Of a stretch of 64,000 bases of DNA, positions 3,391 through 42,609 are shown piece after piece. The position numbers were made by a program, and so were the translations under genes. The notes under the pieces were generated by a model, which was not told the DNA's origin, searched no databases, and saw only the letters and a list, made by a program, of their open reading frames with translations. Position 1 is the first letter of the stretch, and every line of letters begins with the position of its first letter. The stretch is taken from the IMG/VR virus record IMGVR_UViG_3300047476_002143, positions 455 to 64,454 of that record; one strand, written 5' to 3'. The stretch is from a virus. Lineage: Duplodnaviria > Caudoviricetes.

Positions 3391-3393
3391 AAA

Positions 3394-17403: not shown

Positions 17404-17475
17404 ATGATGAACATCGACTTAAATAAGTTTAATCCGGCACCTGCGAATGGTGATGGCAATCTTATGTCAAGTTGA
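17404..17475 (+). CDS. Putative leader peptide 1 (MMNIDLNKFNPAPANGDGNLMSS)
   Basis: 23-codon ORF after TATTTATA; stop codon overlaps the antiterminator strand; codons match the downstream tRNAs. Confidence 0.75.
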   Translation: MMNIDLNKFNPAPANGDGNLMSS

Positions 17476-17496
17476 GTTCGGTAAAATATTATGTTT

Positions 17497-17531
17497 AAAA
17501 AACCCTGAACTCTTAAGTTTGGGGTTTTTTT
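17497..17531 (+). terminator. Attenuator terminator before the tRNA-Pro/Asn/Asp/Gly/Ala cluster
   Basis: AAAAAACCCTGAAC-TCTTAA-GTTTGGGGTTTTTTT; alternative pairing of GAGTTCGG (17474-81) with CTGAACTC (17505-12). Confidence 0.8.
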
Positions 17532-19159: not shown

Positions 19160-19187
19160 AAAAACCCTCCTCGTGAGGGTTTTTTTT
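19160..19187 (+). terminator. Intrinsic terminator
   Basis: AAAACCCTC-CTCGT-GAGGGTTTTTTT. Confidence 0.8.
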
Positions 19188-19200
19188 ATTATATTTGCGT

Positions 19201-19554
19201 ATGGCTCATCCAAACATTCACGCAAAATCCTCAGCAAAAAAATTTGGTGGTAAACCCGAAGATTATATCCATTTACACGAGTGGATGGACGAAACAAAGG
19301 CATGGTTTGGTGATTCACTTCACCGAATGTTTAGACATCATAGTGAGGGTATATTCGAAATGGAAAAAAGATTTGGCACAGAGTTCAAAAACTCAGATGG
19401 TAAAACCGTTTATACAAGGTATGTTGGAGAACAACATGTTAAAGAGGATTGTTTCAACTATATACCATCAGCCAAAGAATGGGTCGAAAATATATCCAAA
19501 AATCAAAGACCACAATGGATGTTAAGAACTGTTAAACTCGAGTTTGAAGACTAA
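19201..19554 (+). CDS. DUF6915-like protein
   Basis: MAHP..HA.SS..KFGG..EDY..LH.W.DE.K...D..HR..RHHSEGIF, EQHVKED. Confidence 0.7.
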   Translation: MAHPNIHAKSSAKKFGGKPEDYIHLHEWMDETKAWFGDSLHRMFRHHSEGIFEMEKRFGTEFKNSDGKTVYTRYVGEQHVKEDCFNYIPSAKEWVENISKNQRPQWMLRTVKLEFED

Positions 19555-20291: not shown

Positions 20292-20356
20292 TCGTATATT
20301 TGTATGGTTCTTTGAAATATTGCCCCTGTGGTGGAATAGGCAGACACGCAGGACTT

Positions 20357-21104
20357 TAGGTAGACACTAAGTTTTTTTACTTCTTCTCTTCCGTTTTCAG
20401 TATTACTGAATATTTATAATAAAATAATATTATGAATAGAAAGTATACGAAAGAGGGTCTTCAGGAAATCGCAAATAAATGTTTTTCATTTAGACAAATG
20501 ATTCTTGAACTTAATCTTAAAGAAACTGGAGGTAATTACGTAAATATTCAAAAACGTTGTAAAGAATTTGAGGTCGACACAAATCATTTTTTTGGACCAG
20601 CATGGAATAAGTTAGGACATCCGTTGTTCAATAAAAAAAATGGAACTCCGATTGAAAATTTTTTTATTAAAGGTGAGAAAAAAATTGCATCATCCAAAAT
20701 AAAAAATAGAATTCTTAATAACAATTTAAGAGAATATAAGTGTGAAATTTGTGGATTAACCGAATGGCTGGGACGAAGACTTGTAATTGAGTTACACCAC
20801 ATCAACGGAGACCCAACAGATAATAGATTACAAAATCTTCAAATGTTGTGCCCAAATTGTCATTCACAAACTCATAACTATTGTAAAAAAGAAGAATTAA
20901 GAAAGATTAATGTTTAATACAGAGTGCTTGAATGGAAACGTTCAAAGTAGAACCCCGTAAATTCGGTGAACCCTTTAACATGGGAATACCGAGCGAAGCC
21001 CGAAAGGGAACGTGTAGAGACTAGACACGGGGCACCTTTAACATGGTGAAGGTATAGTCCAGACCACAAACATTTATGATGGTAGTGAAAACTATAGTGG
21101 TAAG
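20357..21104 (+). mobile_element. Group I intron in the tRNA-Leu anticodon
   Basis: P AAATTCGGTGAA, Q AATACCGAGC, R GTAGAGACTAG, S AAGGTATAGTCC; terminal G at 21104. Confidence 0.88.
20432..20917 (+). CDS. Intron-encoded HNH homing endonuclease
   Basis: KCEICG..EW...LELHHINGD..DNRLQNLQMLCPNCHSQT; TATTTATA upstream at about 20411. Confidence 0.9.
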   Translation: MNRKYTKEGLQEIANKCFSFRQMILELNLKETGGNYVNIQKRCKEFEVDTNHFFGPAWNKLGHPLFNKKNGTPIENFFIKGEKKIASSKIKNRILNNNLREYKCEICGLTEWLGRRLVIELHHINGDPTDNRLQNLQMLCPNCHSQTHNYCKKEELRKINV

Positions 21105-21166
21105 AAAATCCTGTTCGCAGAAAAAGCGAGTACGAGTTCGATTCTCGTTGGGGGCACATAAAAAAT

Positions 21167-21357: not shown

Positions 21358-21702
21358 ATGAAAAAGTTAATTTTATTTTTTTTATTTTCTTTCTTTTTTC
21401 TGTCATGTGAGAAAGAAAGTTTTGATGTTGTATTCTTAAACGTAGGTTACTGTCGAATTCCTAACGGTGTGGAACTGAAATTTATTGTCGACGAAACATT
21501 ATCGGTAAAGAAATATGTTATTGAATCGGCAAAAGACATGTCGAGAAATTATACCGAATTGGCTTCAATAGAAAGTAGAAAAACTCAAGGTCAACAACTG
21601 TATAGTTACAAATTGGGTATGAATCGTCCTCTCATATATAGAATCAAAGCGGTTCATACAAATAAAAAAATACAATTTTCAAAAGAGTTTTTACTTAATT
21701 AA
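21358..21702 (+). CDS. Putative lipoprotein
   Basis: MKKLILFFLFSFFFLSC lipobox; the true start lies after the tRNA. Confidence 0.7.
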   Translation: MKKLILFFLFSFFFLSCEKESFDVVFLNVGYCRIPNGVELKFIVDETLSVKKYVIESAKDMSRNYTELASIESRKTQGQQLYSYKLGMNRPLIYRIKAVHTNKKIQFSKEFLLN

Positions 21703-21738
21703 TAGTTTTTATATATTTGTTAGATAATTATATAGTAC

Positions 21739-21834
21739 ATGAACAACACATCAAAACATATCGTCATTAGTAAACAACAGTTTAGTTGTTGGTATTGTCA
21801 TATGCTTACCTGTAGTTCATCATTAGTTAGTTAA
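21739..21834 (+). CDS. Putative leader peptide 2 (MNNTSKHIVISKQQFSCWYCHMLTCSSSLVS)
   Basis: 31-codon ORF after a TATATTTG promoter (21712-19); CTGTAGTTC (21810-18) pairs with the terminator 5' arm. Confidence 0.75.
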   Translation: MNNTSKHIVISKQQFSCWYCHMLTCSSSLVS

Positions 21835-21857
21835 GTTCCTGAAGACTTATATACACG

Positions 21858-21891
21858 ACCCCGAACTACAGAAATGTATTCGGGGTTTTTT
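21858..21891 (+). terminator. Attenuator terminator before tRNA cluster 2
   Basis: ACCCCGAACTACA-GAAA-TGTATTCGGGGT plus T tract. Confidence 0.85.
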
Positions 21892-21898
21892 ATTTTTG

Positions 21899-21907
21899 GT
21901 TCTTTGA
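21899..21907 (+). promoter_or_regulatory. boxA-like antitermination motif GTTCTTTGA
   Basis: The same 9-mer lies upstream of the tRNA-Leu unit (20307) and of the tmRNA (42544-52, minus strand). Confidence 0.55.
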
Positions 21908-21931
21908 CATATTGGTTGTAAATTTGTAAAA

Positions 21932-22012
21932 CAAAACACGGGTGGCTCCCTTAATAGTTAAGGCTGACCTTAAGCATCTACCGAAAGGTATACAGGGGGC
22001 GAAAGTGTTTTG
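21932..22012 (+). ncRNA. Unassigned structured RNA of about 80 nt
   Basis: CAAAACAC/GTGTTTTG, GCTCCC/GGGGGC, TTAAGG/CCTTAA, TACC-GAAA-GGTA. Confidence 0.5.
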
Positions 22013-22018
22013 ATTGAT

Positions 22019-22089
22019 AGTCCTTTGGTGTAGCGGTAACACAGAAGTATTTGGAGCTTCTTTCCTTGGTTCGAATCCAAGAGGGACTA
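22019..22089 (+). tRNA. tRNA-Gln(TTG)
   Basis: GAAGT-AT-TTG-GA-GCTTC, AGTCCTT/AGGGACT acceptor. Confidence 0.88.
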
Positions 22090-22090
22090 C

Positions 22091-22215
22091 AAAGATATAC
22101 ACTGAAAAGTGTTGTTAGCAATTCGGAATAGTACGGAACGAGTAATAATTCTACAAACTCCTTCTGAGCGAAATCCTTAGGTTGTAGAGGCAGTGGAGCA
22201 ACACCACATATCTTT
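22091..22215 (+). ncRNA. Unassigned structured RNA of about 125 nt
   Basis: AAAGATAT/ATATCTTT, GTGTTGTT/AGCAACAC and CTACAA/TTGTAG nested stems. Confidence 0.45.
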
Positions 22216-22223
22216 TCAAAAAT

Positions 22224-22311
22224 AGTCAGGTGATGAAATGGTATTAAGGTGGAGGTATGACGCAGTAATGTAGTCCCAAAACAGTTACAGGTTCGAATCC
22301 TGTCCTGACTT
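22224..22311 (+). ncRNA. tRNA-like element without a canonical anticodon arm
   Basis: Perfect AGTCAGG/CCTGACT acceptor and ACAGG-TTCGAAT-CCTGT T arm, irregular middle. Confidence 0.65.
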
Positions 22312-22317
22312 CAATAT

Positions 22318-22392
22318 TGTCTCGTAGCTCAGTTGGTTGAGAGCGTTTGCCTGATACGCAAGAGGTCGTCGGTTCGAGTCCGACCGAGACAA
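22318..22392 (+). tRNA. tRNA-Ile(GAT)
   Basis: TTGC-CT-GAT-AC-GCAA, TGTCTCG/CGAGACA acceptor. Confidence 0.92.
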
Positions 22393-22408
22393 CTCAAAAT
22401 AACAACAA

Positions 22409-22762
22409 ATGAAAATACCTTCAATTAAAATTGCCGAATGGAAATTTTTCGGAAGACGTACTGTTGGCCTTACAATATTCCCATTCATTTTTATCAGGGA
22501 ATCATATGCGGATAAAATAAATGACGAAAAATTGAGTCAAATTATAAATCATGAGTCAATTCATATTATACAACAAAAAGAGTTACTCGTCATTATTTTT
22601 TACTTGTGGTATTTTTTGGAGTTTTCTATAAGATATCTGAAAACATTTAATTTTGACAAAGCTTACTACTCAATTTCCTTTGAAAAGGAGGCTTATGAAA
22701 ATGAAAAAAATTCGGAATACATAAAAAATAGAAAACTTTGGAGTTTTTTAAAATATCTTTAA
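22409..22762 (+). CDS. Bacteroidota-type small membrane protein with an HExxH motif
   Basis: GLTIFPFIF, INHESIH..QQKEL, AY..ISFE.EAY. Confidence 0.7.
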   Translation: MKIPSIKIAEWKFFGRRTVGLTIFPFIFIRESYADKINDEKLSQIINHESIHIIQQKELLVIIFYLWYFLEFSIRYLKTFNFDKAYYSISFEKEAYENEKNSEYIKNRKLWSFLKYL

Positions 22763-22769
22763 TTTGAAG

Positions 22770-22842
22770 GGTGACGTAGCTCAGTTGGTAGAGCACTTGC
22801 CTGAAGAGCAAGGTGTCGTCAGTTCGATTCTGACCGTTACCA
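22770..22842 (+). tRNA. tRNA-Phe(GAA)
   Basis: CTTGC-CT-GAA-GA-GCAAG. Confidence 0.92.
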
Positions 22843-22847
22843 CAGGA

Positions 22848-22950
22848 TGTTAAGTAGTGGATATGTAAGCGGGCTCAAGCTCGGTAAGTCGAAATGGGTT
22901 ATGATTCTCTTTACGAGACCACATTGTGGGTTCGAGCCCCACCTTAACAA
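22848..22950 (+). ncRNA. tRNA-like element with an expanded, rearranged core
   Basis: TGTTAAG/CTTAACA acceptor, GTGGG-TTCGAGC-CCCAC T arm, internal hairpins including TCTC-TTTAC-GAGA. Confidence 0.6.
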
Positions 22951-22955
22951 CAAAC

Positions 22956-23058
22956 AGTCGGACGGTGATTCGTTCTAAAGTAAGCCGTCTCCAAGCTTTT
23001 GGTAAAAGAGATGAACGCCTAATTCGAAAACTACTAAGTTCGAATCCTGTCCCGACTT
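22956..23058 (+). pseudogene. Degenerate tRNA-like element related to 22224-22311
   Basis: AGTCGG/CCGACT ends and a GTTCGAATCCTGTCC tail; T stem mismatched. Confidence 0.5.
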
Positions 23059-23074
23059 ATAAAAAAGATTTTTT

Positions 23075-23224
23075 ATGAAAGAAGAAATAGTTTGTCCTCA
23101 TTGTGGAGAAAAAGAAAACTTTCACTTCAATTACGACTACGCACAAACACACATGCCGATTATAAATGTATTGTGTAATGAATGTGGTGAATATTTTGAA
23201 ATGAAAGAACAACCGACCTCTTAG
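23075..23224 (+). CDS. Small zinc-ribbon protein (49 aa)
   Basis: CPHCG...CNECG; not in the ORF track; the 3' end overlaps the start of tRNA-Lys. Confidence 0.65.
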   Translation: MKEEIVCPHCGEKENFHFNYDYAQTHMPIINVLCNECGEYFEMKEQPTS

Positions 23225-23288
23225 CTCAGTTGGTTAGAGCACTTCACTTTTAATGAAGGAGTCCCGCGTTCGAGTCGCGGAGGGGTCA
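23215..23288 (+). tRNA. tRNA-Lys(TTT)
   Basis: CTTCA-CT-TTT-AA-TGAAG. Confidence 0.92.
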
Positions 23289-23358
23289 CAAAAAAATTTA
23301 AGAAGAAATTTGTTCTTCATAAGAAAAATGATTATGTTTTTCTTAAAATAAATTTTTT

Positions 23359-23772
23359 ATGAAAAAGGTAATCGTTCTTCTCATCTCATCAGTTCTTCTC
23401 TTTTCTTGTACTAAAGAAAACAAAACAATCCAATCCAAAAAAAGTAATGTCCTATTGAACGACTCTTTAATTTCTTCGAAAAATAAACAAACCATAAATG
23501 GTACAACTTTGGTTGCAGAATTTAATCCAAAAACAGGTCAGATTTTAATCGTTGAAGAAAAAAATACATCTCTCGACCTGATGGTTAGGTACCAATCGTA
23601 TAAGGGAAATAATTTAGTACTGAATAGTAATATTAATTATGGTAATTATATTTCTCCTTTTGTAGTACTTGGGTACCCATCTATTCCTAGAGGAATGAAA
23701 TATATGGTCAAAATCCAAGTCAAAACTATTTCAGGTGATTTTCAGTTTATTTTTCAGGGAAATAAGAAATAA
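23359..23772 (+). CDS. Putative lipoprotein
   Basis: MKKVIVLLISSVLLFSC lipobox. Confidence 0.7.
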   Translation: MKKVIVLLISSVLLFSCTKENKTIQSKKSNVLLNDSLISSKNKQTINGTTLVAEFNPKTGQILIVEEKNTSLDLMVRYQSYKGNNLVLNSNINYGNYISPFVVLGYPSIPRGMKYMVKIQVKTISGDFQFIFQGNKK

Positions 23773-23839
23773 TCCCTTATTTTTGTAAAACAAATTAAAA
23801 CCATGATATTTTATCATGGTTTTTTATTAAATTACGTAT

Positions 23840-24442
23840 ATGATAGACAATTTGGAGTTGATTAAACCATTATTAAATTTTGAAGACCAAGAAGATTTTT
23901 ATATGTTATACATCTTCAAAAGAAAAAAAGACCAACCTGAAGATGAAAGGGATAATCACCAATCGGTTAGGACAATTAAGAGTTATTGCGTTAGCAATCT
24001 TGAATACCTTGATAAAAGATACGATGAGATTAAACAATTGTGTGAAATTTTCAAAGCCAGAGCGTATATTCATGTTCAAAAACAAAACCACCGAGATGTT
24101 TCTTTGAGTATGATGGTGGAATTGGCCCAAAAAATACAATTTGGTGTTCATTACCAACAATATCTTTTTGATTCAGTCGTGGGTCAGTTGAAAACTCATG
24201 AAAAAAGATGGATTGTGGATTTGGATACTACTGATGAGAATGAAGTTGTAAGAATGACTAAGGTTATAAATGTCACAAGACCTGAAGGTGATAAAATTGA
24301 GGCGATTATCCCAACGAAGAATGGTTATCATTTTATTACAAAGAGATTTGATGTTGAGATGTTTAGAAATGTTTATCCACATATTGATATACAAAAGAAA
24401 AATCCAACTTTGTTATATCTACCAAAATCCTTATCTTTGTAA
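23840..24442 (+). CDS. Conserved phage protein with primase-polymerase-like motifs
   Basis: WIVDLD (DxD) and PTKNGYHFIT. Confidence 0.55.
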   Translation: MIDNLELIKPLLNFEDQEDFYMLYIFKRKKDQPEDERDNHQSVRTIKSYCVSNLEYLDKRYDEIKQLCEIFKARAYIHVQKQNHRDVSLSMMVELAQKIQFGVHYQQYLFDSVVGQLKTHEKRWIVDLDTTDENEVVRMTKVINVTRPEGDKIEAIIPTKNGYHFITKRFDVEMFRNVYPHIDIQKKNPTLLYLPKSLSL

Positions 24443-24443
24443 T

Positions 24444-24617
24444 ATGAAGGTGATGATTAAGAAAGATAGTACTGACATATGTCCATACCTTTACGAAGGT
24501 TCAGTACTACAAAACGTCAGAGAAACTAAGAAAAATTATATTGGTATTTTTTCTTCGTTTGCTGGTTCTTATGAAGTCAAAGTTCCAAAAACAAGAGCAA
24601 AAAAACTTGAAAAATGA
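24444..24617 (+). CDS. Hypothetical protein
   Basis: ATG just after a TATCTTTG motif (24432-39). Confidence 0.55.
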   Translation: MKVMIKKDSTDICPYLYEGSVLQNVRETKKNYIGIFSSFAGSYEVKVPKTRAKKLEK

Positions 24618-24847
24618 AAGCAATACTTGAATTCAATTTACCCGATGACCAACAAGACTTTCAACTCGCATCGAATGCTATGAAATTTTGGTCTGTTTTG
24701 TACGAATTGGACCAAGACCTCAGAACAAAAACTAAATATGCATCTGACGACTTACCACAAGACAAATATGATGCATATGAGGAAGTTAGAGATATGTTGC
24801 ATGAACTTATGAGAAATGAAAATATAAGTCTGGATATGGTCTCATAG
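24614..24847 (+). CDS. Conserved phage hypothetical protein
   Basis: MKAILEFNLPDD N-terminus common in phages. Confidence 0.7.
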   Translation: MKAILEFNLPDDQQDFQLASNAMKFWSVLYELDQDLRTKTKYASDDLPQDKYDAYEEVRDMLHELMRNENISLDMVS

Positions 24848-24855
24848 GTTTATAT

Positions 24856-24929
24856 GGTGGACGTAGCTCAGTTGGTAGAGCACTAGTTTGTGGCACTAGT
24901 TGTCGTGGGTTCGACTCCCATCGTTCACA
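24856..24929 (+). tRNA. tRNA-His(GTG)
   Basis: CTAGT-TT-GTG-GC-ACTAG, encoded G-1. Confidence 0.92.
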
Positions 24930-24936
24930 CAATAAT

Positions 24937-25010
24937 GGTCAGATACCCAAGTGGCTTAAGGGGAGGCTCTGCAAAAGCTTTATACGTCGGTTCGAATCCG
25001 ACTCTGACCT
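24937..25010 (+). tRNA. tRNA-Cys(GCA)
   Basis: AGGCT-CT-GCA-AA-AGCTT, U73. Confidence 0.92.
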
Positions 25011-25024
25011 CAAAAAAATTTATC

Positions 25025-25294
25025 ATGGAAGTATCGATGGATGGATTGAGAAAACGTTTGATTGGTGACTATAACTCACTTACAAAAAAGTTGAATAGGA
25101 ATATCAAAGACAAATCTCATGACCCTCAAATTATAATCGACCCTGATTATATTAGTAGGGAAATGGATGGTATCAGAAGTGCAATCATCACTTTGGCTTT
25201 CAGTTATATTGATGGCGTTGAAGGATTCGGAGTATTACCTGAGGATTTAGAGTTTGAAGTTTTTAATCCCGAAGATGATGAAGATGAAGAATAA
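25025..25294 (+). CDS. Hypothetical protein
   Basis: Start moved to the ATG after tRNA-Cys. Confidence 0.6.
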   Translation: MEVSMDGLRKRLIGDYNSLTKKLNRNIKDKSHDPQIIIDPDYISREMDGIRSAIITLAFSYIDGVEGFGVLPEDLEFEVFNPEDDEDEE

Positions 25295-25589
25295 GTTGTA
25301 TATTTGCAATGATAGTTTTGGTAGTAGAATAAACGCTGGTGATATTGTGGAATTGTGTATGGAGTGGGAAATGTCATCAACATGGACATCAAAAGTATAT
25401 TGGAATGTGTTAGATGGTGCATTTGTAGATGCTCACCCAGGGCGTGTGAAGTTGGGTTTGGCATTTCACAGAAACTTGAGAGAGTTTATAGATAGAGAAC
25501 CAATGAAAATTGAGAATGAGGATGGTGAGATTGAAGTTCTTAAAACATATTGTAAGAAAGTTAAAAATAAAAAAATACGTGTGTGGTGA
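25284..25589 (+). CDS. Hypothetical protein
   Basis: ORF overlapping the upstream stop; 3' end overlaps tRNA-Trp. Confidence 0.5.
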   Translation: MKNKLYICNDSFGSRINAGDIVELCMEWEMSSTWTSKVYWNVLDGAFVDAHPGRVKLGLAFHRNLREFIDREPMKIENEDGEIEVLKTYCKKVKNKKIRVW

Positions 25590-25647
25590 AACGGTATCAT
25601 GAATCTCTCCAAAAGATTTGTTTCTCGTTCGAATCGAGACACACGTG
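25577..25647 (+). tRNA. tRNA-Trp(CCA)
   Basis: ACGTGTG/CACACGT acceptor, AATCT-CT-CCA-AA-AGATT. Confidence 0.9.
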
Positions 25648-25648
25648 C

Positions 25649-25731
25649 ACATACATCACAATCAGTCAAGCCACATTTAGCTGTCAGTGTATGTAAGATG
25701 AGAGAAGGAGGTGGCTGGGACATTCTCTCAT
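25649..25731 (+). ncRNA. Two-hairpin RNA with a possible kissing-loop pseudoknot
   Basis: ACATACAT/GTGTATGT and ATGAGAGAA/TTCTCTCAT stems; complementary loop segments AGCCAC/GTGGCT. Confidence 0.55.
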
Positions 25732-25737
25732 AAAATT

Positions 25738-25868
25738 TATAGGTTGATTGGGGAAGGGACTATATTAAAACCTGGTGATGGGTGGGTTTATAGTTCGGAG
25801 TTGGAATCATCATAGTAATGCCAATCGTAAAAGGAGTTGTCCACGCGACCATCTTCTCCTTTCCTATA
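25738..25868 (+). ncRNA. Unassigned multi-stem RNA of about 130 nt
   Basis: TATAGG/CCTATA, GATTGG/CCAATC, ACTATA/TATAGT, AAAGGAG/CTCCTTT. Confidence 0.55.
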
Positions 25869-25871
25869 TTT

Positions 25872-25953
25872 GGGAGTATCGCCTAGCGGCAATGGCAGAA
25901 GACTGTAAATCTTCCCTCTTTTGAGTTCGTTGGTTCGAGTCCAGCTACTCCCA
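25872..25953 (+). tRNA. tRNA-Tyr(GTA)
   Basis: GAAGA-CT-GTA-AA-TCTTC, variable arm. Confidence 0.92.
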
Positions 25954-26091
25954 CAACTATTTATTTTTATGAGAAAAAAATTTAACAAATTCAAAGTCAA
26001 AATTGTTGAATGTTATCGATTCTTACAATTTATCGAAAGTAAAAGACTCGAACTCATGGAAAGAGCAACGTGGGGAAAATTCTGAAATATT

Positions 26092-26344: not shown

Positions 26345-26419
26345 GACCTTGTAGTATAACGGATAGTATGTCTCACTTCGAATGAGCGGGTTTAGGTTCG
26401 ACTCCTAATGAGGTCACCA
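26345..26419 (+). tRNA. tRNA-Arg(TCG)
   Basis: CTCA-CT-TCG-AA-TGAG, encoded CCA. Confidence 0.88.
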
Positions 26420-26489
26420 AAGTTTTTTCAAATCAAAATATGATATTTGACTCAGAATTTTTTTTAGTTTATAATTATAAATGTAATTA

Positions 26490-26560
26490 GGGTGGTTCGT
26501 TTAGCGGTAAGACAATTGACTCCGACTCAGTAAAGGTAGGTTCGATTCCTACACCATCCA
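26490..26560 (+). tRNA. tRNA-Arg(CCG)
   Basis: ATTGA-CT-CCG-AC-TCAGT, GGGTGGT/ACCATCC acceptor. Confidence 0.8.
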
Positions 26561-26589
26561 CAGAACTTATTGTTCGTAAAATGAAAACG

Positions 26590-26723
26590 TTTCTGATACT
26601 TCGTATTATGTTTTTGTAATATGACGTATATTCTTCCTTTGATGGGGGGGATACACTCTCGCTAGAGTCATTGTCGCTATGGTGGTGGCTCAGAATCACG
26701 AGTCGGAGTAACCGTATTAGAAA
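26590..26723 (+). ncRNA. Unassigned multi-branch RNA of about 135 nt
   Basis: TTTCTGATAC/GTATTAGAAA closing stem enclosing about four hairpins with G-U pairs. Confidence 0.5.
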
Positions 26724-26748
26724 TAATTTTATAATTAAAACCAGTTTT

Positions 26749-27048
26749 ATGTTATTACAAGTTGTTAAAATGTCAGATGAAGTGACGGTAAGCTCACTTC
26801 CACACCCAATTTCGATGTTTTTCTTAGGTATTTTTGCTATCACCATCATTTTCATGTGGCTCGAAGTTAATCGTTCATCTAAACGTAAGGACAAAATATG
26901 TTCTGATGTTGAAGATTTGAAAAAAGAGTACTCTCAATTTAAATCAGAAATAAATCATAAATTTTCTGAACTCTCAAAGAAAATAGATTCGAGAGTTGAT
27001 AAGGCTGTCGTCAGTTTAAAGAAACAAAGTAAACTAATCAATGAATAA
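26749..27048 (+). CDS. Membrane-anchored coiled-coil protein
   Basis: Transmembrane helix followed by a coiled coil; terminator at about 27049-27074. Confidence 0.6.
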   Translation: MLLQVVKMSDEVTVSSLPHPISMFFLGIFAITIIFMWLEVNRSSKRKDKICSDVEDLKKEYSQFKSEINHKFSELSKKIDSRVDKAVVSLKKQSKLINE

Positions 27049-27094
27049 AAAAACGCAGAGAAATCTGCGTTTTTATCAATTTGTTCTAAAAAGA

Positions 27095-27259
27095 TTATTT
27101 CTTTTTTTCAACTATTGACCACACAGTACCGAGAAGTCCTAAAACTCCACCAAGTACTTCTTGAACCATTGCATCGTCAACTATTCCTTTAACTACAAGG
27201 ATACCACCAGCGAAAGTGATTACGTGCCTAATAATACCAAAAACTTGTTCTTTAGTCAT
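27095..27259 (-). CDS. Putative holin (two transmembrane helices)
   Basis: GIIRHVITFAGG.LV.KG...WS...KK pattern of small phage holins; TATTTATA upstream. Confidence 0.7.
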   Translation of the reverse strand: MTKEQVFGIIRHVITFAGGILVVKGIVDDAMVQEVLGGVLGLLGTVWSIVEKKK

Positions 27260-27316
27260 AAATTTTCTTTTTTTGTAAGGTTTATTTATAATTATAAATA
27301 TCAATCAACTTTTTTT

Positions 27317-27697
27317 ATGATAGACAGTTGTGTCAGTTTACTAAAGGATGTCATCGACTTGGTCGTGAAAAACAAACAAATGCAAAAAGAAACTAAATTC
27401 AGGGTTGCAATACTTTTGGAAGAAATATCAAAAATATTAGAGGATACCGCAATAAAATTATCAAATAATGAGTATCCACATTTCAATTGTACATTGATGG
27501 AAAAAATGTCAGACCATCTTAATTTTTATTTGACAGATTTTATCCCTGAAAAACAATTAAACGAATTACACGACTCTTTAAAAAAAGCATCTCAAGTCGA
27601 AAAACAGTTCGCTGTTAGAGATGAACCATCAACAATTCCATCAATCTATGAGGCCGCAGCTAATTTCAAATTATTTTCTCTTTTACTTAAAGTTTAG
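27317..27697 (+). CDS. Hypothetical protein
   Basis: ORF divergent from the holin gene. Confidence 0.55.
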   Translation: MIDSCVSLLKDVIDLVVKNKQMQKETKFRVAILLEEISKILEDTAIKLSNNEYPHFNCTLMEKMSDHLNFYLTDFIPEKQLNELHDSLKKASQVEKQFAVRDEPSTIPSIYEAAANFKLFSLLLKV

Positions 27698-27711
27698 TAT
27701 CTTTGTATTAT

Positions 27712-27796
27712 GGAGGGTTGCCTGAGTGGTTAAAGGAGCGGTTTGCTAAACCGTGGTCGGGTAACTGACCCGTTGGTTCGAATCCAACACTCTCCG
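27712..27796 (+). tRNA. tRNA-Ser(GCT)
   Basis: GCGGT-TT-GCT-AA-ACCGT, long variable arm, own TATCTTTG promoter. Confidence 0.93.
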
Positions 27797-27891
27797 CAAA
27801 AAAATCATTCTAACATTTGATTTAATAGGTAATAATGACTATATTTATATTCTACTAACAAAAAAAAAGTATAAACAAACAAAAAACAATT

Positions 27892-28095: not shown

Positions 28096-28144
28096 TTATT
28101 CAGGAATTAAGAAAAAATTAAACCCACCTAAATGGTGGGTTTTT

Positions 28145-34832: not shown

Positions 34833-36032
34833 TTAGTTTCCTTTTGTTGGGAACCTCGTCCATTTGGAAGACCAAAGTGGTGTTGCAAGTTCAGGTATTA
34901 CTGAAGTAATTTCTGAATTGCCTTTTGATAGTGATAATGTTTTTAATTGGTCGTTTGTTAATATAAGTGTTGCTTTACTGATAAAATTAAGTGAAGGATT
35001 AAAAGTTCCAACTGAATTATTTTCAAATACTGAAACCCCATCTTTAACAAACTGTGCAGTTTCATTACTTTCCAAACTCAATCCACCTTTCATCCAACCC
35101 CAAATCACACTGTTCTTCATTGTGAATTGTGTTGCTCTTCTGAATCTCAAACCTAAGTTATGATTAGGAAGTGATGTGGCATCGTTTGGACCAACCAAAG
35201 TCATATTAAGAAGTTTTGGGTGAGTGAAAGGTTGTGCGAGTGAGCCAACGCCATCGTTATCGCACTCTACCCCATTACCAGCATCACCATTATCTACAAA
35301 TTGTGGGTCTCTTTTTGCAACACCATTTGTTATTGTTCCTGTGTAACCGAAGTCAAAATCAAAATCATCATCTGCAGTTGCAAATGCGTAAAGATATTTT
35401 GGAGATACTGTTCCACCGAAGAACTCAAAAGCATCATCGTTAGCGTAAATTGTTTGAACGTATTCTATTACTGTTCCACTACCAACACCTCCAAGAGTTA
35501 ATGCATTGATTTCTGAATTTGGAAGTGCTGCAATACCTGCGTATTCAATTCTGACATACTTCAGAATACCACTATTGTCAGCATCATTAGTTCCGCCGAA
35601 TGGTCTACCAATACCACCTTCGATTGTTGGTTCAGAACTTCTGTTTGTTTTTGCTCTTCCCAAAATTACAATTCCACCCCAATCGCCAGGAGACCTCTCG
35701 CCAGCGTTTTTACCTGAGGTGAAAATAATTGGTTTTTCAGGAGTTCCTTCTGCAATTATTTGAGCTCCTCTTTCAATGCAAAGTGCTCCTTTTTCTGCAA
35801 CATCGGAAATAATTGTTGTTCCTGGTTGAATGATTAGTTTTGCACCATCTGTAACATATACATACCCTTTGAGAGTCCATACTTTGTCAGATGTCAAAGT
35901 TGTTGTTTGATTAATGTTTCCTGTTAAAGTAGTTTGTGAAGGAACATTAATTGGTGGAGTTCCTCCCCCTAATTCTTTTTCGCAACTTAACAAAAGTGTT
36001 GAGAATAAAACTGCCGTTAATAATTTTTTCAT
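34833..36032 (-). CDS. Surface lipoprotein, beta-helix-like partner of the TonB receptor
   Basis: LLLSC lipobox, PIIFTS, GDWGG...LG, YVRIEYAG, DDAFEFFGG, DDDFDFD. Confidence 0.8.
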   Translation of the reverse strand: MKKLLTAVLFSTLLLSCEKELGGGTPPINVPSQTTLTGNINQTTTLTSDKVWTLKGYVYVTDGAKLIIQPGTTIISDVAEKGALCIERGAQIIAEGTPEKPIIFTSGKNAGERSPGDWGGIVILGRAKTNRSSEPTIEGGIGRPFGGTNDADNSGILKYVRIEYAGIAALPNSEINALTLGGVGSGTVIEYVQTIYANDDAFEFFGGTVSPKYLYAFATADDDFDFDFGYTGTITNGVAKRDPQFVDNGDAGNGVECDNDGVGSLAQPFTHPKLLNMTLVGPNDATSLPNHNLGLRFRRATQFTMKNSVIWGWMKGGLSLESNETAQFVKDGVSVFENNSVGTFNPSLNFISKATLILTNDQLKTLSLSKGNSEITSVIPELATPLWSSKWTRFPTKGN

Positions 36033-38281
36033 AAGTTTAGATTTAATGAAACTGAGAGAGTTTGTTCGTTATTGATTTTTATTAACTCTCTGTTGTTTAT
36101 TTTTTGATAGTATACTGTTGGTTGAGCGATTAGGTCACCAATAGCGAGTTTAAGTTCACCATTTTTTATTTTTCTTAGGTAAACGATGTCCATTACGTCT
36201 CTTGAGTTTTCAAATATATCTGCATATCCTTGAAATCCTACCGCAGAAATTCTATCACCCACTCTGTTGTATGAAATATTGAATGTGTTTTTTCCTTTGT
36301 GGAAATTCAATCCACCATTAACCACATAGTTTGATTGTCCTTGTAATTGTCTTTCCACTCCATTAACTTTAACGTGAGAGTTTGAAACTGTTGAATTTGT
36401 ATAAACATCCAACCAGGAACAAATTTGTTTTCTAAGTTCAAATTCAATACCGTAAACACTTGCTCTGTCAGGATTTGTGAAAGTCAAAAGTAAGTTTGAT
36501 GGTACTGAACCATCTGCAACTATTTGTTCTATTGGTCTTACGAAGTTCTTACCGAATAAAGCAACTGATATATTTTCCCCTGATTTCGGATAGTACTCCC
36601 ACTTCAGGTCTAAATTATAGATGTCTGTCTTTTCTAAATTTGTATTACCTAAAAGTTGAGCATTTCTTACAAAATCGTAATAAGCGAAGTTTGCAACTTC
36701 TCTGAACTCAGGTCTTGAAAGTGTTTTGGAAAATGAAGTTCTGAATTTTGTTTTGTCTAAATTATAGGAAAGATTAATGGATGGTAAGAAGTCCAAATAT
36801 TCTCTATTTACCTGAACCTTTTGTCCACTGAAATCTGATGTCTCAACATTGAATAAATTATATTCAGTTCTAATCCCACCGTTTATCTTAAGTTTTCCAA
36901 GTGTCTTATCATATTGAACATAACCGGAGCCCAAATCAAAATCTGCACCATATCTGTCAGTATTGTTTGTAATTTCATTTAATATATCATCGGCATCGTA
37001 TCTGAAGATTCTTGCTTTGAAATTTCTTAATTTTTTCAGATATGATACTCCAATCTTGAAATCATTTATCTCCTTGTTTAATGAACCATTGAATGAATTC
37101 TCGTCCATTACAGACCAAAACCTGTATGTGTCTCTCCAAGCAGTTGTATAGTCTGTATTCGTTCCTAATGACTTTGTAATTGGGTTTACTCTATAGTCAG
37201 GTTGGTCTCTTAACATCAAGTTCCAACCAACATTAAAATCTAAAGTTTTTATCTTACCATCAAATTGTGAATTTACAATTGTCTTAACAATATTATTAGA
37301 GGAATTACTTCTGACATCTTGTACGTTGTCATAGTTCTCACCATTTCTTGTCAGGTAAGAATTTTCAATTTGGTGATTGAATAAAGTTTTCCAAGAATAT
37401 TTGTTTTGGCCCAAATAAGTTAGGTTCATTAACCCATTAACTAAAAATACTTTAGTAAATGATGTATCTTTATACTTGTAAGCTAATTCAGTAGATGATT
37501 GATAATCTTGTCTGTCAATAAAATTCAGAGAAAATGAATTTCTTGCATTTGCCGACATTAACAAATTCCATTTATCTTTTTTGTAACCGAAAGACAAATT
37601 ACAATTCAAGTTTGGAAATGAATTTGTTGTTTTAGAGTTAGGAGAGCCTATTAGTTTGGTGAAAGCCCTTCTATCACCATTAGATGCAACTCTAAAGTCG
37701 TATGTGGACGGAAAGTTGGTGGGGAACTGAATATATTCCACCGAGTTGAATTTTTGGAATGTAGAAACGGTCCCGTACCCCGAACCCATTCCTATTGTAA
37801 AAAAATTTTTTGATACATCTTTAGTGTTTACCTGAATTATGCCACCCCCAAAATCACCAGGAAGTGATGCAATTGCAGATTTGGAAACAATAATATTATC
37901 TATCAGATTGGATGGGATAATATCGAAAGAAAATGCTCTTCTATCAGGTTCTGTTGAAGGTAGAAGAGTTTTATTTAGTATTGCTGAATTATACCTGTCT
38001 GATAATCCTCTAACTAAAACAAACTTATCGTTTTGAATTGTTACACCATTAACTCTTTTGAGGGCATCTCCGACAGTTCTATCAGGAGTTTTTTTGATAA
38101 ATTCTACTGAAAGTCCATCGGAAACGACTGAACTATTCCTTACAATATTGATTACTGCAATGTTGGTTTCTTTCTTCGTTGTACTTTTAACTTTAACTTC
38201 ATCTAACTTTTGATTGAACAATGTGTCTTGGGAAAAACTGAATATTGGTAATACCAATAATAAAAATAAATTTTTAATCAT
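36029..38281 (-). CDS. TonB-dependent outer-membrane receptor
   Basis: Signal peptide, plug domain (VRGLSDRYN, LPSTEPDRRAFSFDIIPSNLID), RPEFRE, GN..L...I.NLD..WEYYP. Confidence 0.9.
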   Translation of the reverse strand: MIKNLFLLLVLPIFSFSQDTLFNQKLDEVKVKSTTKKETNIAVINIVRNSSVVSDGLSVEFIKKTPDRTVGDALKRVNGVTIQNDKFVLVRGLSDRYNSAILNKTLLPSTEPDRRAFSFDIIPSNLIDNIIVSKSAIASLPGDFGGGIIQVNTKDVSKNFFTIGMGSGYGTVSTFQKFNSVEYIQFPTNFPSTYDFRVASNGDRRAFTKLIGSPNSKTTNSFPNLNCNLSFGYKKDKWNLLMSANARNSFSLNFIDRQDYQSSTELAYKYKDTSFTKVFLVNGLMNLTYLGQNKYSWKTLFNHQIENSYLTRNGENYDNVQDVRSNSSNNIVKTIVNSQFDGKIKTLDFNVGWNLMLRDQPDYRVNPITKSLGTNTDYTTAWRDTYRFWSVMDENSFNGSLNKEINDFKIGVSYLKKLRNFKARIFRYDADDILNEITNNTDRYGADFDLGSGYVQYDKTLGKLKINGGIRTEYNLFNVETSDFSGQKVQVNREYLDFLPSINLSYNLDKTKFRTSFSKTLSRPEFREVANFAYYDFVRNAQLLGNTNLEKTDIYNLDLKWEYYPKSGENISVALFGKNFVRPIEQIVADGSVPSNLLLTFTNPDRASVYGIEFELRKQICSWLDVYTNSTVSNSHVKVNGVERQLQGQSNYVVNGGLNFHKGKNTFNISYNRVGDRISAVGFQGYADIFENSRDVMDIVYLRKIKNGELKLAIGDLIAQPTVYYQKINNRELIKINNEQTLSVSLNLNL

Positions 38282-41694: not shown

Positions 41695-41877
41695 GTTTGT
41701 TTTGTTTATTTGTTTATAATAAAAAACCCCGAGACTATGCGTCAAGGGGTTTAAGTATCCGAAGCTCCAAGGTTTTTGAGGTCGTACAGTTCATAAAGGA
41801 ATTCTCCTAATTTTAAGTATTGTAGTTTTTGTGAACAATTAAAAATATAATATTAAAAAATCATTAAGTCAAATAAG

Positions 41878-42142: not shown

Positions 42143-42537
42143 TGGTGGAGATGGACGGATTCGAACCGTCGTCTTGTTTGCGATAACTATAAATGACTAC
42201 ACGTTTAGTACAACATTGGTTCTCAATGTTACGAAATATCAGGTTTGATGTTTGTGAGAAACCCACCTGTAAACAACTTGGTCTCAGAGTTATTTTAAGG
42301 GAGCTCTGACCTGTGACCCCCATATCGGACTTCTGTTCCTAGGTACACGTCCTAATCGACCCGAAACGTTGTTCTCTACGATTACGCAGCAACAACAACA
42401 GCTTCTCTAGTCAAGCCAAGAGTAGCCATTTTAGCAAAAGTATTGCCATTTGTTTTTTAAATCAGTTTTGAAGGAGTTAATTCAGCTCCTACGTGCCACT
42501 TATACCTATACACACCAATCGATACCATGTCATCCCC
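42143..42537 (-). ncRNA. ssrA: tmRNA
   Basis: 5' GGGGATGAC..TCGA, 3' T arm and CATCTCCACCA, G3:U pair, tag ORF at 42382-42447 ending VVVAA-stop. Confidence 0.92.
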
Positions 42538-42609
42538 ATAATTTCAAAGAACATTACAAAGATACGAATAGATAAATACATAAACAAATTTAAAAGTATT
42601 TATTTCATT

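What the first reader, a model, noticed from the sequence alone, without database searches (positions are those of the whole stretch)
21712..25953. Leader 2: KHIVISKQQFSCWYCH precedes tRNA-Gln, Ile, Phe, Lys, His, Cys, Trp and Tyr
Seen: all eight amino acids of the next eight canonical tRNAs occur within codons 6-21 of a 31-codon ORF, including the rare C, W, Y and H. The order C-W-Y mirrors the gene order Cys-Trp-Tyr. CTGTAGTTC (21810-18) pairs perfectly (9 bp) with GAACTACAG (21863-71) of the terminator, and a boxA-like motif follows at 21899. Caveats: a terminator-like hairpin (about 23797-23826) and a promoter-like motif (24432) lie within the cluster, and the later Arg tRNAs have no codons in the leader.
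Basis: partly seen in the sequence, partly recalled or inferred. Interest (0 to 1): 0.9.

Follow-up and report, generated by a model that had tools for sequence, protein, structure and literature searches.

The report
Leader-peptide attenuator inside phage tRNA island
A tiny translated gene wired to a switchable transcription stop sits in front of a block of a freshwater phage's own tRNA genes, and its codons largely match those tRNAs, so the phage may make more of them when ribosomes decode those codons slowly.

Summary
The 31-codon ORF (21739-21834), the 9-bp antiterminator pairing, the terminator (21857-21887 plus T-tract) and the boxA-like motif (21899) are all present.

In this window alone the amino-acid match to the downstream tRNAs is only marginal (coverage 9/10, P about 0.09). 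Comparison with relatives makes the case:
- The module recurs in 14 other loci found by a DNA anchor outside the ORF, and in 12 more found by a peptide profile.
- The frame stays open through 69-101 substitutions (simulated P 0.001-0.006).
- Three mutually exclusive helices (1:2, 2:3, 3:4) are kept, partly by different sequences.
- Over 14 distinct leader/array pairs, 129 of 133 downstream tRNA identities have a codon in the leader.
- Non-homologous leaders of the same layout precede other tRNA arrays.

The boxA-like motif is identical over 16 nt to the rRNA-operon boxA of Aquirufa, the probable host genus.

Caveats: a conserved promoter-like box follows the terminator, further such boxes lie inside the cluster, no RNA data exist, and independent evolutionary events are few.

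I read it as a ribosome-mediated attenuator, a new variant of a known kind. My literature searches found no description of it. The scan has noted the same idea on other DNA.

The parts
21712..21719 (+). TATATTTG, a possible promoter -7 box (P1), 19 nt before the leader ATG
   Evidence: The box type (TAnnTTTG) sits 4-15 nt before tRNA-Met 16642, tRNA-Ser 27712 and gene 19201. Most relatives do not have it at this place; there tRNA-Leu ends about 35-85 nt upstream instead.
21739..21834 (+). Leader ORF, 31 codons plus TAA
   Evidence: The ORF is open in all 15 leader-bearing loci (window included) that were found through a DNA anchor outside the ORF. Simulated P of staying stop-free is 0.001-0.006.
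21739..21748 (+). Segment 1: AUGAAC(A)ACA, start-codon region, pairs with segment 2
   Evidence: MFE folds. Pairs kept in 11-13 of 13 sequences. Other lineages use ACUACA or ACAAUGG instead.
21757..21804 (+). Central imperfect hairpin inside the ORF (arms CAUAU/AUAUG and CAACA/UGUUG)
   Evidence: Compensatory changes at alignment pairs 37:69, 49:58 and 50:57.
21810..21820 (+). Segment 2: CUGUAGUUC(AU), codons 24-28. Pairs either with segment 1 or with the terminator's 5' arm.
   Evidence: 92% of cells paired. One compensatory change, U:A to C:G, in L209/L215.
21826..21856 (+). Small conserved hairpin between the stop codon and the terminator (core AAGUUCCUGAAGACUU)
   Evidence: 96% of cells paired. 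Also present in the three leaderless modules L082, L208 and L211.
21857..21897 (+). Intrinsic terminator: hairpin 21857-21887 plus T-tract (segments 3 and 4)
   Evidence: -17.1 kcal/mol; 96% of cells paired. In L082/L013 and L208 the homologous hairpin directly ends a protein gene.
21898..21914 (+). boxA-like element GGTTCTTTGACATATTG
   Evidence: 10/11 match to the published consensus. 16/16 identical to the 16S-23S spacer motif of Aquirufa antheringensis. Present with at most 2 mismatches in 20 of 23 leader-bearing rows and 0 of 3 leaderless modules.
21919..21926 (+). TAAATTTG, promoter-like -7 box (P2)
   Evidence: Present in 23 of 23 rows, always 20 nt after the start of the boxA-like core where that core exists. 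Lies 4-10 nt before the first tRNA or the ATG in several relatives.
21932..22012 (+). About 80-nt structured spacer RNA before tRNA-Gln
   Evidence: MFE -28.9 kcal/mol, z -3.46. Its first bases are also present in L212.
22019..23289 (+). tRNA-Gln, odd tRNA-like 22224-22311, tRNA-Ile, ORF 22409-22762, tRNA-Phe, tRNA-like remnants, ORF 23075-23224, tRNA-Lys
23359..24847 (+). Protein genes inside the island (lipoprotein-like 23359-23772, 200-aa 23840-24442, 77-aa 24614-24847), with TAnnTTTG boxes at 23778 and 24432
24857..25954 (+). tRNA-His, Cys, Trp and Tyr, with an ORF between Cys and Trp. TAnnTTTG boxes at 25299 and 25865.
26345..27797 (+). tRNA-Arg(tcg), Arg(ccg) and Ser(gct): the rest of the same-strand array. 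The next strong + strand terminator is at 28120-28142.

Best explanation
Leader 2 is a ribosome-mediated (leader-peptide) transcription attenuator. It sits inside the tRNA island of a large freshwater phage whose host is probably Aquirufa (Bacteroidota).

Proposed mechanism:
- RNA polymerase arrives from upstream, either from the weak P1 box or from the tRNA-Leu unit that directly precedes the leader in most relatives. It transcribes a 31-codon ORF whose RNA folds into a long hairpin, in which segment 1 (start-codon region) pairs with segment 2 (codons 24-28).
- If the ORF is not translated, or a ribosome runs to the stop codon 14 nt past segment 2, segment 2 is unavailable. The terminator (3:4) then forms and transcription stops at about 21891-21897.
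- If a ribosome stalls within roughly codons 4-21, segment 2 is free. It pairs with the terminator's 5' arm (9 bp) and polymerase reads through.
- Read-through RNA, and only that RNA, then carries a host-rRNA-type boxA. This would recruit the Nus antitermination factors for the long untranslated tRNA array.
- A promoter-like box after boxA probably gives a constitutive boxA-less baseline.

Because the stall-sensitive codons are mostly those of amino acids whose tRNAs lie downstream, I think the switch reports slow decoding of these codons. That could be shortage, cleavage or poor charging of the matching tRNAs. The switch would then raise synthesis of the phage's own copies.

Shown by sequence comparison: the anatomy, its conservation, the open frame, the alternative pairings, identity of the boxA-like motif to the motif in the probable host's rRNA operons, and the family-level codon/tRNA association.
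Inferred: translation, stalling, termination, read-through, Nus recruitment and the physiological signal.

Confidence split: about 0.65-0.7 that it is a working attenuator, and about 0.4 that it is tuned to the downstream tRNAs.
For: 1. Conservation found without reference to the ORF. A DNA anchor between stop codon and terminator found 17 loci. Of these, 14 plus the window carry the ORF, with 10 distinct peptides.
2. Open frame. There are 69 (lower bound) to 101 substitutions among 9 distinct 31-codon versions. The simulated chance that all stay stop-free is 0.001 (random positions) or 0.006 (same positions). The other two frames hold 2-5 stops. pN/pS is mostly 0.35-0.8 over the eight branches, and one short branch had no synonymous change.
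3. Structure. 87% of 635 pair cells are standard pairs, against 31-43% when partners are slid. There are compensatory changes in the central hairpin. The antiterminator is 92% paired, with U:A to C:G in L209/L215. The 1:2 helix is rebuilt from different sequences in three lineages: AUGAAC:GUUCAU, ACUACA:UGUAGU and ACAAUGG:CCAUUGU.
4. Control. Of 280 hairpin+T-tract sites, the 6 lying less than 250 nt before a tRNA have much stronger upstream-arm pairing to their 5' arm. The median is -13.2 against -7.7 kcal/mol, Mann-Whitney P=0.0011.
5. Codon/tRNA association.
   - Over 14 distinct leader/array pairs, the amino acid of 129 of 133 downstream tRNA identities is in the leader. For amino acids without a downstream tRNA it is 79 of 133.
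   - Subfamily B leaders cover 13/13 (P about 0.001 against 3,190-3,491 small ORFs).
   - Each leader fits its own array best: the count statistic was the maximum of 720 permutations (P=0.0014), and presence gave P=0.019.
   - L245 lacks tRNA-Glu and both Glu codons.
   - Asn codons number 4-7 where tRNA-Asn follows and 2-4 where none was seen. Among the six long loci the split is clean, 4, 4, 7 against 2, 2, 3.
   - Tyr is replaced in the L087 and L086 lineages, which lack tRNA-Tyr.
   - The Arg codon is CGY in all four distinct leaders that hold an Arg codon and are followed by tRNA-Arg(acg).
6. Non-homologous leaders of the same layout precede other arrays:
   - window Leader 1, in-set 13/22, P=0.0003;
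   - L042, 44 codons holding all 20 amino acids, coverage 19/19, P=0.0014;
   - the 37-codon leader in L231, coverage 10/10, P=0.016.
7. boxA.
   - It is 16/16 identical to the motif 132 nt after the 16S gene of Aquirufa, and a near-copy lies in the 16S leader.
   - It co-occurs with the leader: 20 of 23 rows against 0 of 3 leaderless modules.
   - It lies upstream of the -7 box, so only read-through RNA carries it.
Against: - In this window alone the composition match is marginal (P 0.065-0.09).
- Q-Q, C-W, H and M codons are the arms of conserved helices, so structure alone could fix them.
- Exceptions exist.
   - Arg tRNAs follow with no Arg codon in the window, L206 and L207.
   - tRNA-Asp follows with no Asp codon in L087.
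   - K, Q, H, E, N or T codons occur where no such tRNA follows.
   - L216 has the same leader as L207 but a different start of the array.
   - The same 37-codon leader precedes three different arrays, with P 0.016, 0.046 and 0.21.
- A conserved promoter-like box follows the terminator in 23 of 23 rows. The same terminator+box module works without any leader behind protein genes in L082 and L208. The array therefore need not depend on read-through.
- More promoter-like boxes lie inside the cluster.
- Phylogenetically independent contrasts are too few: same direction 3.3, opposite 0.9, no difference 11.8, summed over amino acids on a poorly resolved marker tree.
- Subfamily B was found by a peptide search, which can only return open frames.
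- The leader has no runs of one codon, unlike most classical leaders.
- A similar layout stands before protein genes (Leader 3, minus strand). The design is therefore not specific to tRNAs.
Confidence: 0.5

Rival explanations
1. It is a real attenuator, but a generic one. It reports whether ribosomes follow the polymerase at all (host shut-off, stage of infection, general elongation rate). The amino-acid match to the array is a by-product of RNA-structure constraints and shared descent.
For: - The layout is also seen before protein genes (Leader 3; its terminator stands out, z -7.6).
- Q-Q/C-W/H-M codons are helix arms.
- The match in this window is marginal.
- Identical leaders precede different arrays.
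- Independent contrasts have no power.
Against: - Four unrelated leader families each cover their own array better than small ORFs do (P 0.0003 to 0.016).
- Leaders 1 and 2 of this window split the amino acids as their arrays do.
- Correlated losses and gains are seen for Glu, Asn, Tyr and Gly, and Arg codons are CGY where tRNA-Arg(acg) follows.
- Amino-acid diversity of the leaders is ordinary, except in L042.
Confidence: 0.22
2. It is a free-standing small gene (a 31-residue peptide, or a structured small RNA that happens to be open) with its own terminator. The tRNAs are made from the promoter after the terminator and from internal promoters. The complementarity to the terminator has no regulatory role.
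For: - The terminator plus -7 box exists without a leader behind protein genes.
- The -7 box is conserved in 23 of 23 rows at a short distance from the first tRNA or ATG.
- There is weak purifying selection on the peptide (pN/pS mostly 0.35-0.8).
Against: - The 2:3 and 1:2 helices are maintained, partly by different sequences.
- Upstream-arm pairing is exceptional among 280 hairpin sites.
- boxA lies upstream of the -7 box and occurs in 20 of 23 leader-bearing rows and in none of the 3 leaderless modules.
- The peptide is poorly conserved outside positions that are RNA helix arms.
- No Pfam-scale domain is possible in 31 residues, and no partner gene travels with it.
Confidence: 0.18
3. The ORF is a chance open frame in the 3' trailer of the upstream tRNA-Leu unit.
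For: Small ORFs are common in 33% G+C DNA. 8,713 ORFs of 18-60 codons were found in the loci used as background.
Against: - The frame is kept open through 69-101 substitutions (P 0.001-0.006).
- The start and stop positions are fixed in all nine distinct 31-codon versions, and a 25-codon version keeps the same stop codon.
- Eight called proteins of this family are in the protein library.
Confidence: 0.05

Closest known systems
Multivalent leader-peptide attenuators of amino-acid operons (ilv and thr leaders of enterobacteria; ilvBNC of Corynebacterium, PMC11857589 seen in a search listing only)
   Same: A short translated ORF holds codons of several amino acids. A terminator follows, with a mutually exclusive antiterminator. 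A stalled ribosome is the signal.
   Different: The genes behind it are tRNA genes of a phage, not biosynthetic enzymes. There are 10-13 amino acids with one to four codons each and no runs of one codon. A boxA follows the terminator, and a promoter-like box follows the boxA.
E. coli trp operon attenuator (trpL; segments 1:2, 2:3, 3:4), from established knowledge
   Same: The same three-helix logic. The terminating ribosome would mask segment 2 (the stop codon lies 14 nt after it). An untranslated leader would default to 1:2 plus 3:4.
   Different: Segment 1 includes the start codon itself, and the whole ORF lies inside the 1:2 hairpin. There is no tandem regulatory codon pair.
pheST leader (pheM) attenuation, from established knowledge (recalled)
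   Same: Attenuation controls a component of the translation apparatus rather than a biosynthetic pathway.
   Different: There it controls a synthetase gene, with one amino acid in a run of Phe codons. Here it controls tRNA genes.
BoxA/Nus-factor antitermination of rRNA operons (PMC5725501, passages read; abstracts of PMC4807359 and PMC10250234 in the listing)
   Same: The motif after the terminator matches the consensus at 10/11 positions. It equals the probable host's 16S-23S spacer motif over 16 nt. It precedes long untranslated RNA genes.
   Different: It is carried by a phage in front of tRNA arrays, an intron-bearing tRNA and a tmRNA. It is placed after a conditional terminator and inside the spacer of a promoter-like site.
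T-box riboswitches, from established knowledge
   Same: Both read tRNA status to control genes of the decoding system through a terminator/antiterminator choice.
   Different: A T-box binds uncharged tRNA directly and needs no translation. Rfam found no T-box or any leader family here.

Membership tests
Ribosome-mediated (leader-peptide) transcription attenuator | Short ORF with a start codon, upstream of and close to a terminator, kept open in relatives | tested here: met
   All 15 anchor-found leader-bearing loci are open (nine distinct 31-codon versions and one 25-codon version). P 0.001-0.006.
Ribosome-mediated (leader-peptide) transcription attenuator | Intrinsic terminator (G+C-rich hairpin plus U-tract) between the leader and the controlled genes | tested here: met
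   -17.1 kcal/mol, T-tract, 96% of cells paired.
Ribosome-mediated (leader-peptide) transcription attenuator | Antiterminator helix that uses the terminator's 5' arm | tested here: met
   9 bp in the window, -9.5 to -15.1 kcal/mol in 11 family members, one compensatory change.
Ribosome-mediated (leader-peptide) transcription attenuator | Anti-antiterminator (1:2) helix that competes for segment 2 | tested here: met
   Three different sequence solutions in three lineages.
Ribosome-mediated (leader-peptide) transcription attenuator | Stop codon placed so that a terminating ribosome masks segment 2 | tested here: met
   the stop codon begins 14 nt after segment 2. Masking follows from the usual footprint size (established knowledge), so this is an inference from geometry only.
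Ribosome-mediated (leader-peptide) transcription attenuator | Regulatory codons enriched for the amino acid(s) tied to the controlled genes | tested here: inconclusive
   In the window, 9/10 coverage (P 0.09) and no runs of one codon. In the family, 129/133, and 13/13 in subfamily B at P about 0.001.
Ribosome-mediated (leader-peptide) transcription attenuator | Controlled genes are co-transcribed with the leader (no other promoter needed) | tested here: inconclusive
   A conserved TAnnTTTG box lies after the terminator, and others lie inside the cluster. The position of boxA argues that read-through RNA matters.
Ribosome-mediated (leader-peptide) transcription attenuator | Read-through depends on translation and on supply of charged tRNA | not testable with these tools
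   No RNA run holds the stretch. An experiment is needed.
Rfam leader families (Thr_leader, Phe_leader and others) and T-box | Match to the covariance model at gathering score | tested here: not met
   No hit in 21700-21930. Only sub-threshold Phe/Thr leader hits at other terminators.
BoxA (Nus-factor binding) element | Sequence match to the BoxA consensus and to the host's rRNA-operon boxA | tested here: met
   10/11 to the consensus. 16/16 to the Aquirufa 16S-23S spacer motif. The motif occurs 7-11 times per genome, against 0-1 for the control pattern.
BoxA (Nus-factor binding) element | Transcribed upstream of long untranslated RNA, and binds NusB/NusE | not testable with these tools
   The position fits only for read-through transcripts. 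Binding was not tested.

The most novel reading that the evidence does not exclude
Phages of this family run multiplexed tRNA-supply sensors. Each tRNA block is gated by a test peptide written in the codons of that block. When host tRNAs become limiting or are cut by anticodon-nuclease defences, stalled ribosomes open the terminator. The read-through RNA then recruits the host's rRNA antitermination machinery through a borrowed boxA, committing polymerase to the whole replacement-tRNA array.
Probability: 0.33. Interest if true: 0.9.

Novelty: new variant of a known kind. Interest (0 to 1): 0.8.

Why it matters
Why phages carry tRNA genes, and how they control them, is an open question. Control of tRNA genes by a translated leader has not been described in any paper my searches reached.

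If the reading holds, it would be the first feedback loop in which decoding speed sets the synthesis of tRNAs themselves. It would show a phage borrowing its host's rRNA antitermination signal. It would also give a sequence-readable indicator of which tRNAs a phage expects to run short of. That bears on codon-usage mismatch and on tRNA-cleaving defence systems.

The many natural variants offer ready-made test constructs: leaders with and without Glu, Asn, Tyr or Arg codons, and modules with and without a leader or a boxA.

Tried and rejected
- No close phage exists in the GenBank phage collection; only tRNA-sized matches were found.
- Rfam gave no leader, T-box or other family in 21700-21930.
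- The upstream lipoprotein-like gene and the 90-aa gene before Leader 1 have no relatives in viral contigs. Leader 1 could therefore not be followed into relatives.
- Of the 80 relatives fetched through the 200-aa gene, 69 have no tRNA nearby and none holds the leader ORF; only L013 shares the terminator. The island is not conserved as a unit.
- A start-plus-CW pattern found only loci already known.
- No RNA holder was listed for the stretch.
- The covariance model R1 found no further strong copies in 33 relatives' records. It gave only weak hits, which led to other leader types. It found nothing in three Aquirufa genomes (one hit at E 0.09).
- The idea that leaders are simply unusually diverse in amino acids was rejected: only L042 stands out.
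- Phylogenetically independent pairs were underpowered.
- The other GCTCTTTGAAAT matches in Aquirufa belong to a dispersed repeat, not to boxA.
- A RiPP-precursor reading was considered and dropped: no modifying enzyme travels with the ORF.
- Papers' supplements were not opened. The boxA tables of PMC5725501 are in supplements that I did not see.
- Literature searches listed no paper on leader-peptide control of viral tRNA genes. I read listings and abstracts only, plus passages of PMC5725501.

Full report
**What the window is.**
- The window is a 64.4-kb fragment of an uncultured virus record, estimated at 21% complete. It has about 33% G+C, 21 tRNA genes and a tmRNA.
- Its 200-aa gene 23840-24442 has 345 relatives in viral contigs, some on records of 200-330 kb.
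- Two of its genes encode TonB-dependent receptors. One of them is 64-66% identical to proteins of Aquirufa and a related Spirosomataceae genome (9 of 25 hits). A freshwater Bacteroidota host, probably Aquirufa, is therefore likely.
- No close phage is in GenBank's phage set.

**The observation.**
- As a coincidence in this window alone it is weak.
- A 16-residue window with all eight amino acids occurs at 4.5 per 10,000 six-frame windows, and at eight other places in the window.
- Against small ORFs of like length from this phage family (3,415 of the pool of 8,713), coverage 9/10 has P=0.09 and in-set residues 21/30 has P=0.065.

**Relatives.**
- A 19-base anchor lying between the stop codon and the terminator, hence blind to the ORF, found 6 viral loci. 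A looser version found 11 metagenome loci.
- Fourteen of these 17 carry a homologous ORF with the same stop codon. The window included, that gives ten distinct peptides: nine of 31 codons and one of 25.
- Three loci (L082, L208, L211) have the small hairpin, the terminator and the following promoter-like box but no leader. In L082 and L208 the terminator simply ends a protein gene.
- The terminator module is thus a genuine terminator, and the leader is an addition to it, or was lost from it.
- A profile of the peptides found eight called proteins in the 1.84-billion-protein library. Through them I found 12 more loci of a divergent subfamily B. These were found by peptide similarity and can only be open frames.

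**Is it translated?**
- Among the nine distinct 31-codon versions found by the DNA anchor there are at least 69 substitutions, or 101 along a minimum spanning tree.
- Simulations that put as many changes at random positions kept all frames open in 0.1% of trials. With changes at the same positions the figure is 0.6%.
- The other two frames hold 2-5 stops each.
- Changes are not concentrated at third positions (18, 26, 25). pN/pS is mostly 0.35-0.8 over the eight branches, and one short branch had no synonymous change.
- This pattern, a frame under selection with little constraint on the peptide, is what a regulatory leader should show.

**RNA anatomy.**
- Folding shows a long hairpin that spans the ORF. 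The start-codon region AUGAAC(A)ACA pairs with UGU(A)GUUCAU of codons 25-28. A central helix is built from CAUAU/AUAUG and CAACA/UGUUG.
- After the stop codon come a small conserved hairpin and then the terminator.
- Truncated before the terminator's 3' arm, the RNA instead pairs CUGUAGUUC with GAACUACAG in 10 of the 11 leader-bearing sequences folded; the exception is L209.
- On the 13-sequence alignment, 87% of pair cells are standard pairs, against 31-43% for slid partners. There are compensatory changes in the central helix.
- The antiterminator is 92% paired and has one U:A to C:G double change in L209/L215.
- The 1:2 helix is kept by three different solutions. Subfamily A pairs the start codon with GUUCAU. 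Subfamily B pairs ACUACA (its Thr-Thr codons) with UGUAGU. L209 pairs ACAAUGG with CCAUUGU. Each overlaps the antiterminator arm.
- The stop codon begins 14 nt after segment 2, so a terminating ribosome would cover part of it. A ribosome stalled at about codons 4-21 would leave it free. This geometric point is an inference.
- As a control, I scanned 280 hairpin+T-tract sites in 84 loci. The six that lie less than 250 nt before a tRNA have much stronger pairing between their upstream region and their 5' arm: median -13.2 against -7.7 kcal/mol, P=0.0011. One of the six is a hairpin inside a tRNA.

**Does the leader match the tRNAs?**
- Fourteen distinct leader/array pairs have at least 2.4 kb of downstream sequence. 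Among them, the amino acid of a downstream tRNA is in the leader in 129 of 133 cases. The misses are Arg three times and Asp once. Amino acids without a downstream tRNA are in the leader in 79 of 133 cases.
- Subfamily B leaders of 28-32 codons cover all 13 identities of their arrays (P about 0.001).
- Re-dealing arrays among six long loci, the true assignment gave the highest count statistic of all 720 permutations (P=0.0014; presence P=0.019).
- Particular changes go the expected way.
   - Glu codons occur with tRNA-Glu in the L206/L207 clade and in subfamily B, and both are gone in L245.
   - Asn codons number 4-7 with tRNA-Asn and 2-4 where none was seen. Among the six long loci the split is clean, 4, 4, 7 against 2, 2, 3.
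   - Tyr is replaced in L087 and L086, which lack tRNA-Tyr.
   - Arg is CGY in all four distinct leaders that hold an Arg codon and are followed by tRNA-Arg(acg).
- Against this, the loci fall into about four clades.
- A marker tree (post-stop region plus tRNA-Cys and tRNA-Trp) is poorly resolved and disagrees with leader similarity. Independent pairs summed to 3.3 in the same direction, 0.9 opposite and 11.8 with no difference, which proves nothing.
- There are exceptions for K, Q, H, E, N, T and D.
- Q-Q, C-W and H/M are helix arms and may be fixed for that reason.

**Other leaders.**
- A scan of 12 loci listed every strong terminator less than 250 nt before a tRNA (five module types). Each has exactly one small ORF ending just before it.
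- Besides Leader 2 these are:
   - Leader 1 of this window (17404-17475, before Pro, Asn, Asp, Gly and Ala; in-set 13/22, P=0.0003);
   - a 44-codon ORF in L042 that holds all 20 amino acids, before 22 tRNAs (coverage 19/19, P=0.0014);
   - a 28-codon ORF in L002 (P=0.006), which model R1 recognises weakly and which may be a distant Leader 2 relative.
- The weak R1 hits led to a further 37-codon leader in L228, L229 and L231. It has its own TAnnTTTG box and an 11-bp antiterminator. Coverage is 10/10 in L231 (P=0.016) but only P=0.046 and 0.21 in the other two.
- In Leader 1, L002 and L042 the ORF's 3' part or the bases just after its stop pair with the terminator's 5' arm. In the 37-codon leader the arm lies within the ORF's last ten codons.
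- In L042 the terminator ends 9 nt before the first tRNA, with no promoter box between.
- These independent cases are the main reason I prefer the tuned-sensor reading to a generic one.

**What follows the terminator.**
- TAnnTTTG, the -7 box type I recall for Bacteroidota promoters, sits 4-15 nt before tRNA-Met, tRNA-Ser, gene 19201 and others.
- One such box (21919) follows the terminator in 23 of 23 family rows. In several relatives it lies 4-10 nt before the first tRNA or the ATG of a 77-aa gene. A promoter after the terminator is therefore likely.
- Between the T-tract and that box lies GGTTCTTTGACATATTG.
   - Its core matches the published BoxA consensus GYTCTTTAANA at 10/11 positions (PMC5725501, passages).
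   - It is identical over 16 nt to a motif 132 nt after each 16S gene of Aquirufa antheringensis. A near-copy lies about 130 nt before the 16S gene. As far as I recall, these are the two places where rRNA operons keep boxA.
- The motif is present, with at most two mismatches, in 20 of 23 leader-bearing rows and in all three loci of the 37-codon leader. It is absent from all three leaderless modules.
- Because it lies upstream of the -7 box, only RNA that has read through the terminator can carry it. That is indirect evidence that read-through transcripts exist and matter.
- Copies also stand directly before the intron-bearing tRNA-Leu (20306) and before the tmRNA.

**Verdict.**
- Leader 2 is best read as a leader-peptide attenuator inside a phage tRNA island. 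It is followed by a borrowed boxA and by a probable constitutive promoter.
- That it senses the decoding of the very codons served by the downstream tRNAs is plausible. The family as a whole and unrelated leaders support it, but it is not established for this window.
- The stretch 21712-25953 is not shown to be one transcription unit.
- Five literature searches listed no description of such control of tRNA genes.
- Earlier notes of this scan describe the same idea in other genomes. I treat them as leads, not as support.

Noticed in passing
window 20306-21160: A tRNA-Leu-like gene is split by about 800 nt that hold an HNH endonuclease ORF (20432-20917) and a structured core. The 5' half follows a boxA-like motif. 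The 3' half, with its T arm, lies near 21125-21160. BLAST matched 21005-21107 to annotated tRNA or intron regions of other phages.
   Followed up: partly
window 22224-22311 and 22848-23067: tRNA-like elements that ARAGORN does not call. Rfam's tRNA model gives 30.3 bits at 22224-22311. Further T-arm-like repeats lie at 22286-22320 and 23033-23067.
   Followed up: no
window 21932-22012: An approximately 80-nt spacer between the promoter-like box and tRNA-Gln folds well (-28.9 kcal/mol, z -3.46). Its first bases are also present in L212, and it is absent from most relatives.
   Followed up: partly
window 17404-17527: Leader 1: a 23-codon ORF rich in Pro, Asn, Asp, Gly and Ala, and a terminator that ends 10 nt before tRNA-Pro, Asn, Asp, Gly and Ala (in-set 13/22, P=0.0003). 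A TAAGTTTG box lies inside the terminator.
   Followed up: partly
The attenuator layout may therefore not be limited to tRNA arrays.
   Followed up: partly
window 42537-42553, minus strand: A boxA-like motif (3 mismatches to the 17-nt pattern) stands directly upstream of the phage tmRNA gene 42143-42537.
   Followed up: no
window 36029-38281 and 38407-41745, minus strand: Phage-borne TonB-dependent receptor genes. The first is 64-66% identical to Aquirufa and Spirosomataceae proteins, which points to the host genus.
   Followed up: partly
L042 2845-3039; L228 777-943, L229 1515-1680, L231 1512-1680; L002 197-337: Other leader-plus-terminator modules before tRNA arrays in related phages. The L042 ORF holds all 20 amino acids in 44 codons. 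The 37-codon leader has an internal copy of the terminator's 3' arm.
   Followed up: partly
window 19160-19201: A bidirectional terminator is followed by TATATTTG only 3 nt before the ATG of gene 19201. This suggests leaderless or near-leaderless mRNAs in this phage.
   Followed up: no
L273-L277 (Aquirufa antheringensis): A dispersed repeat made of TTTGAACTTTG-like units ending in GCTCTTTGAAAT occurs at several places in the host genome. It is not associated with rRNA.
   Followed up: no
loci: Module mosaicism. A tree of the post-stop region plus tRNA-Cys and tRNA-Trp disagrees with leader similarity. Identical leaders precede different arrays (L207 against L216; L228, L229 and L231).
   Followed up: partly
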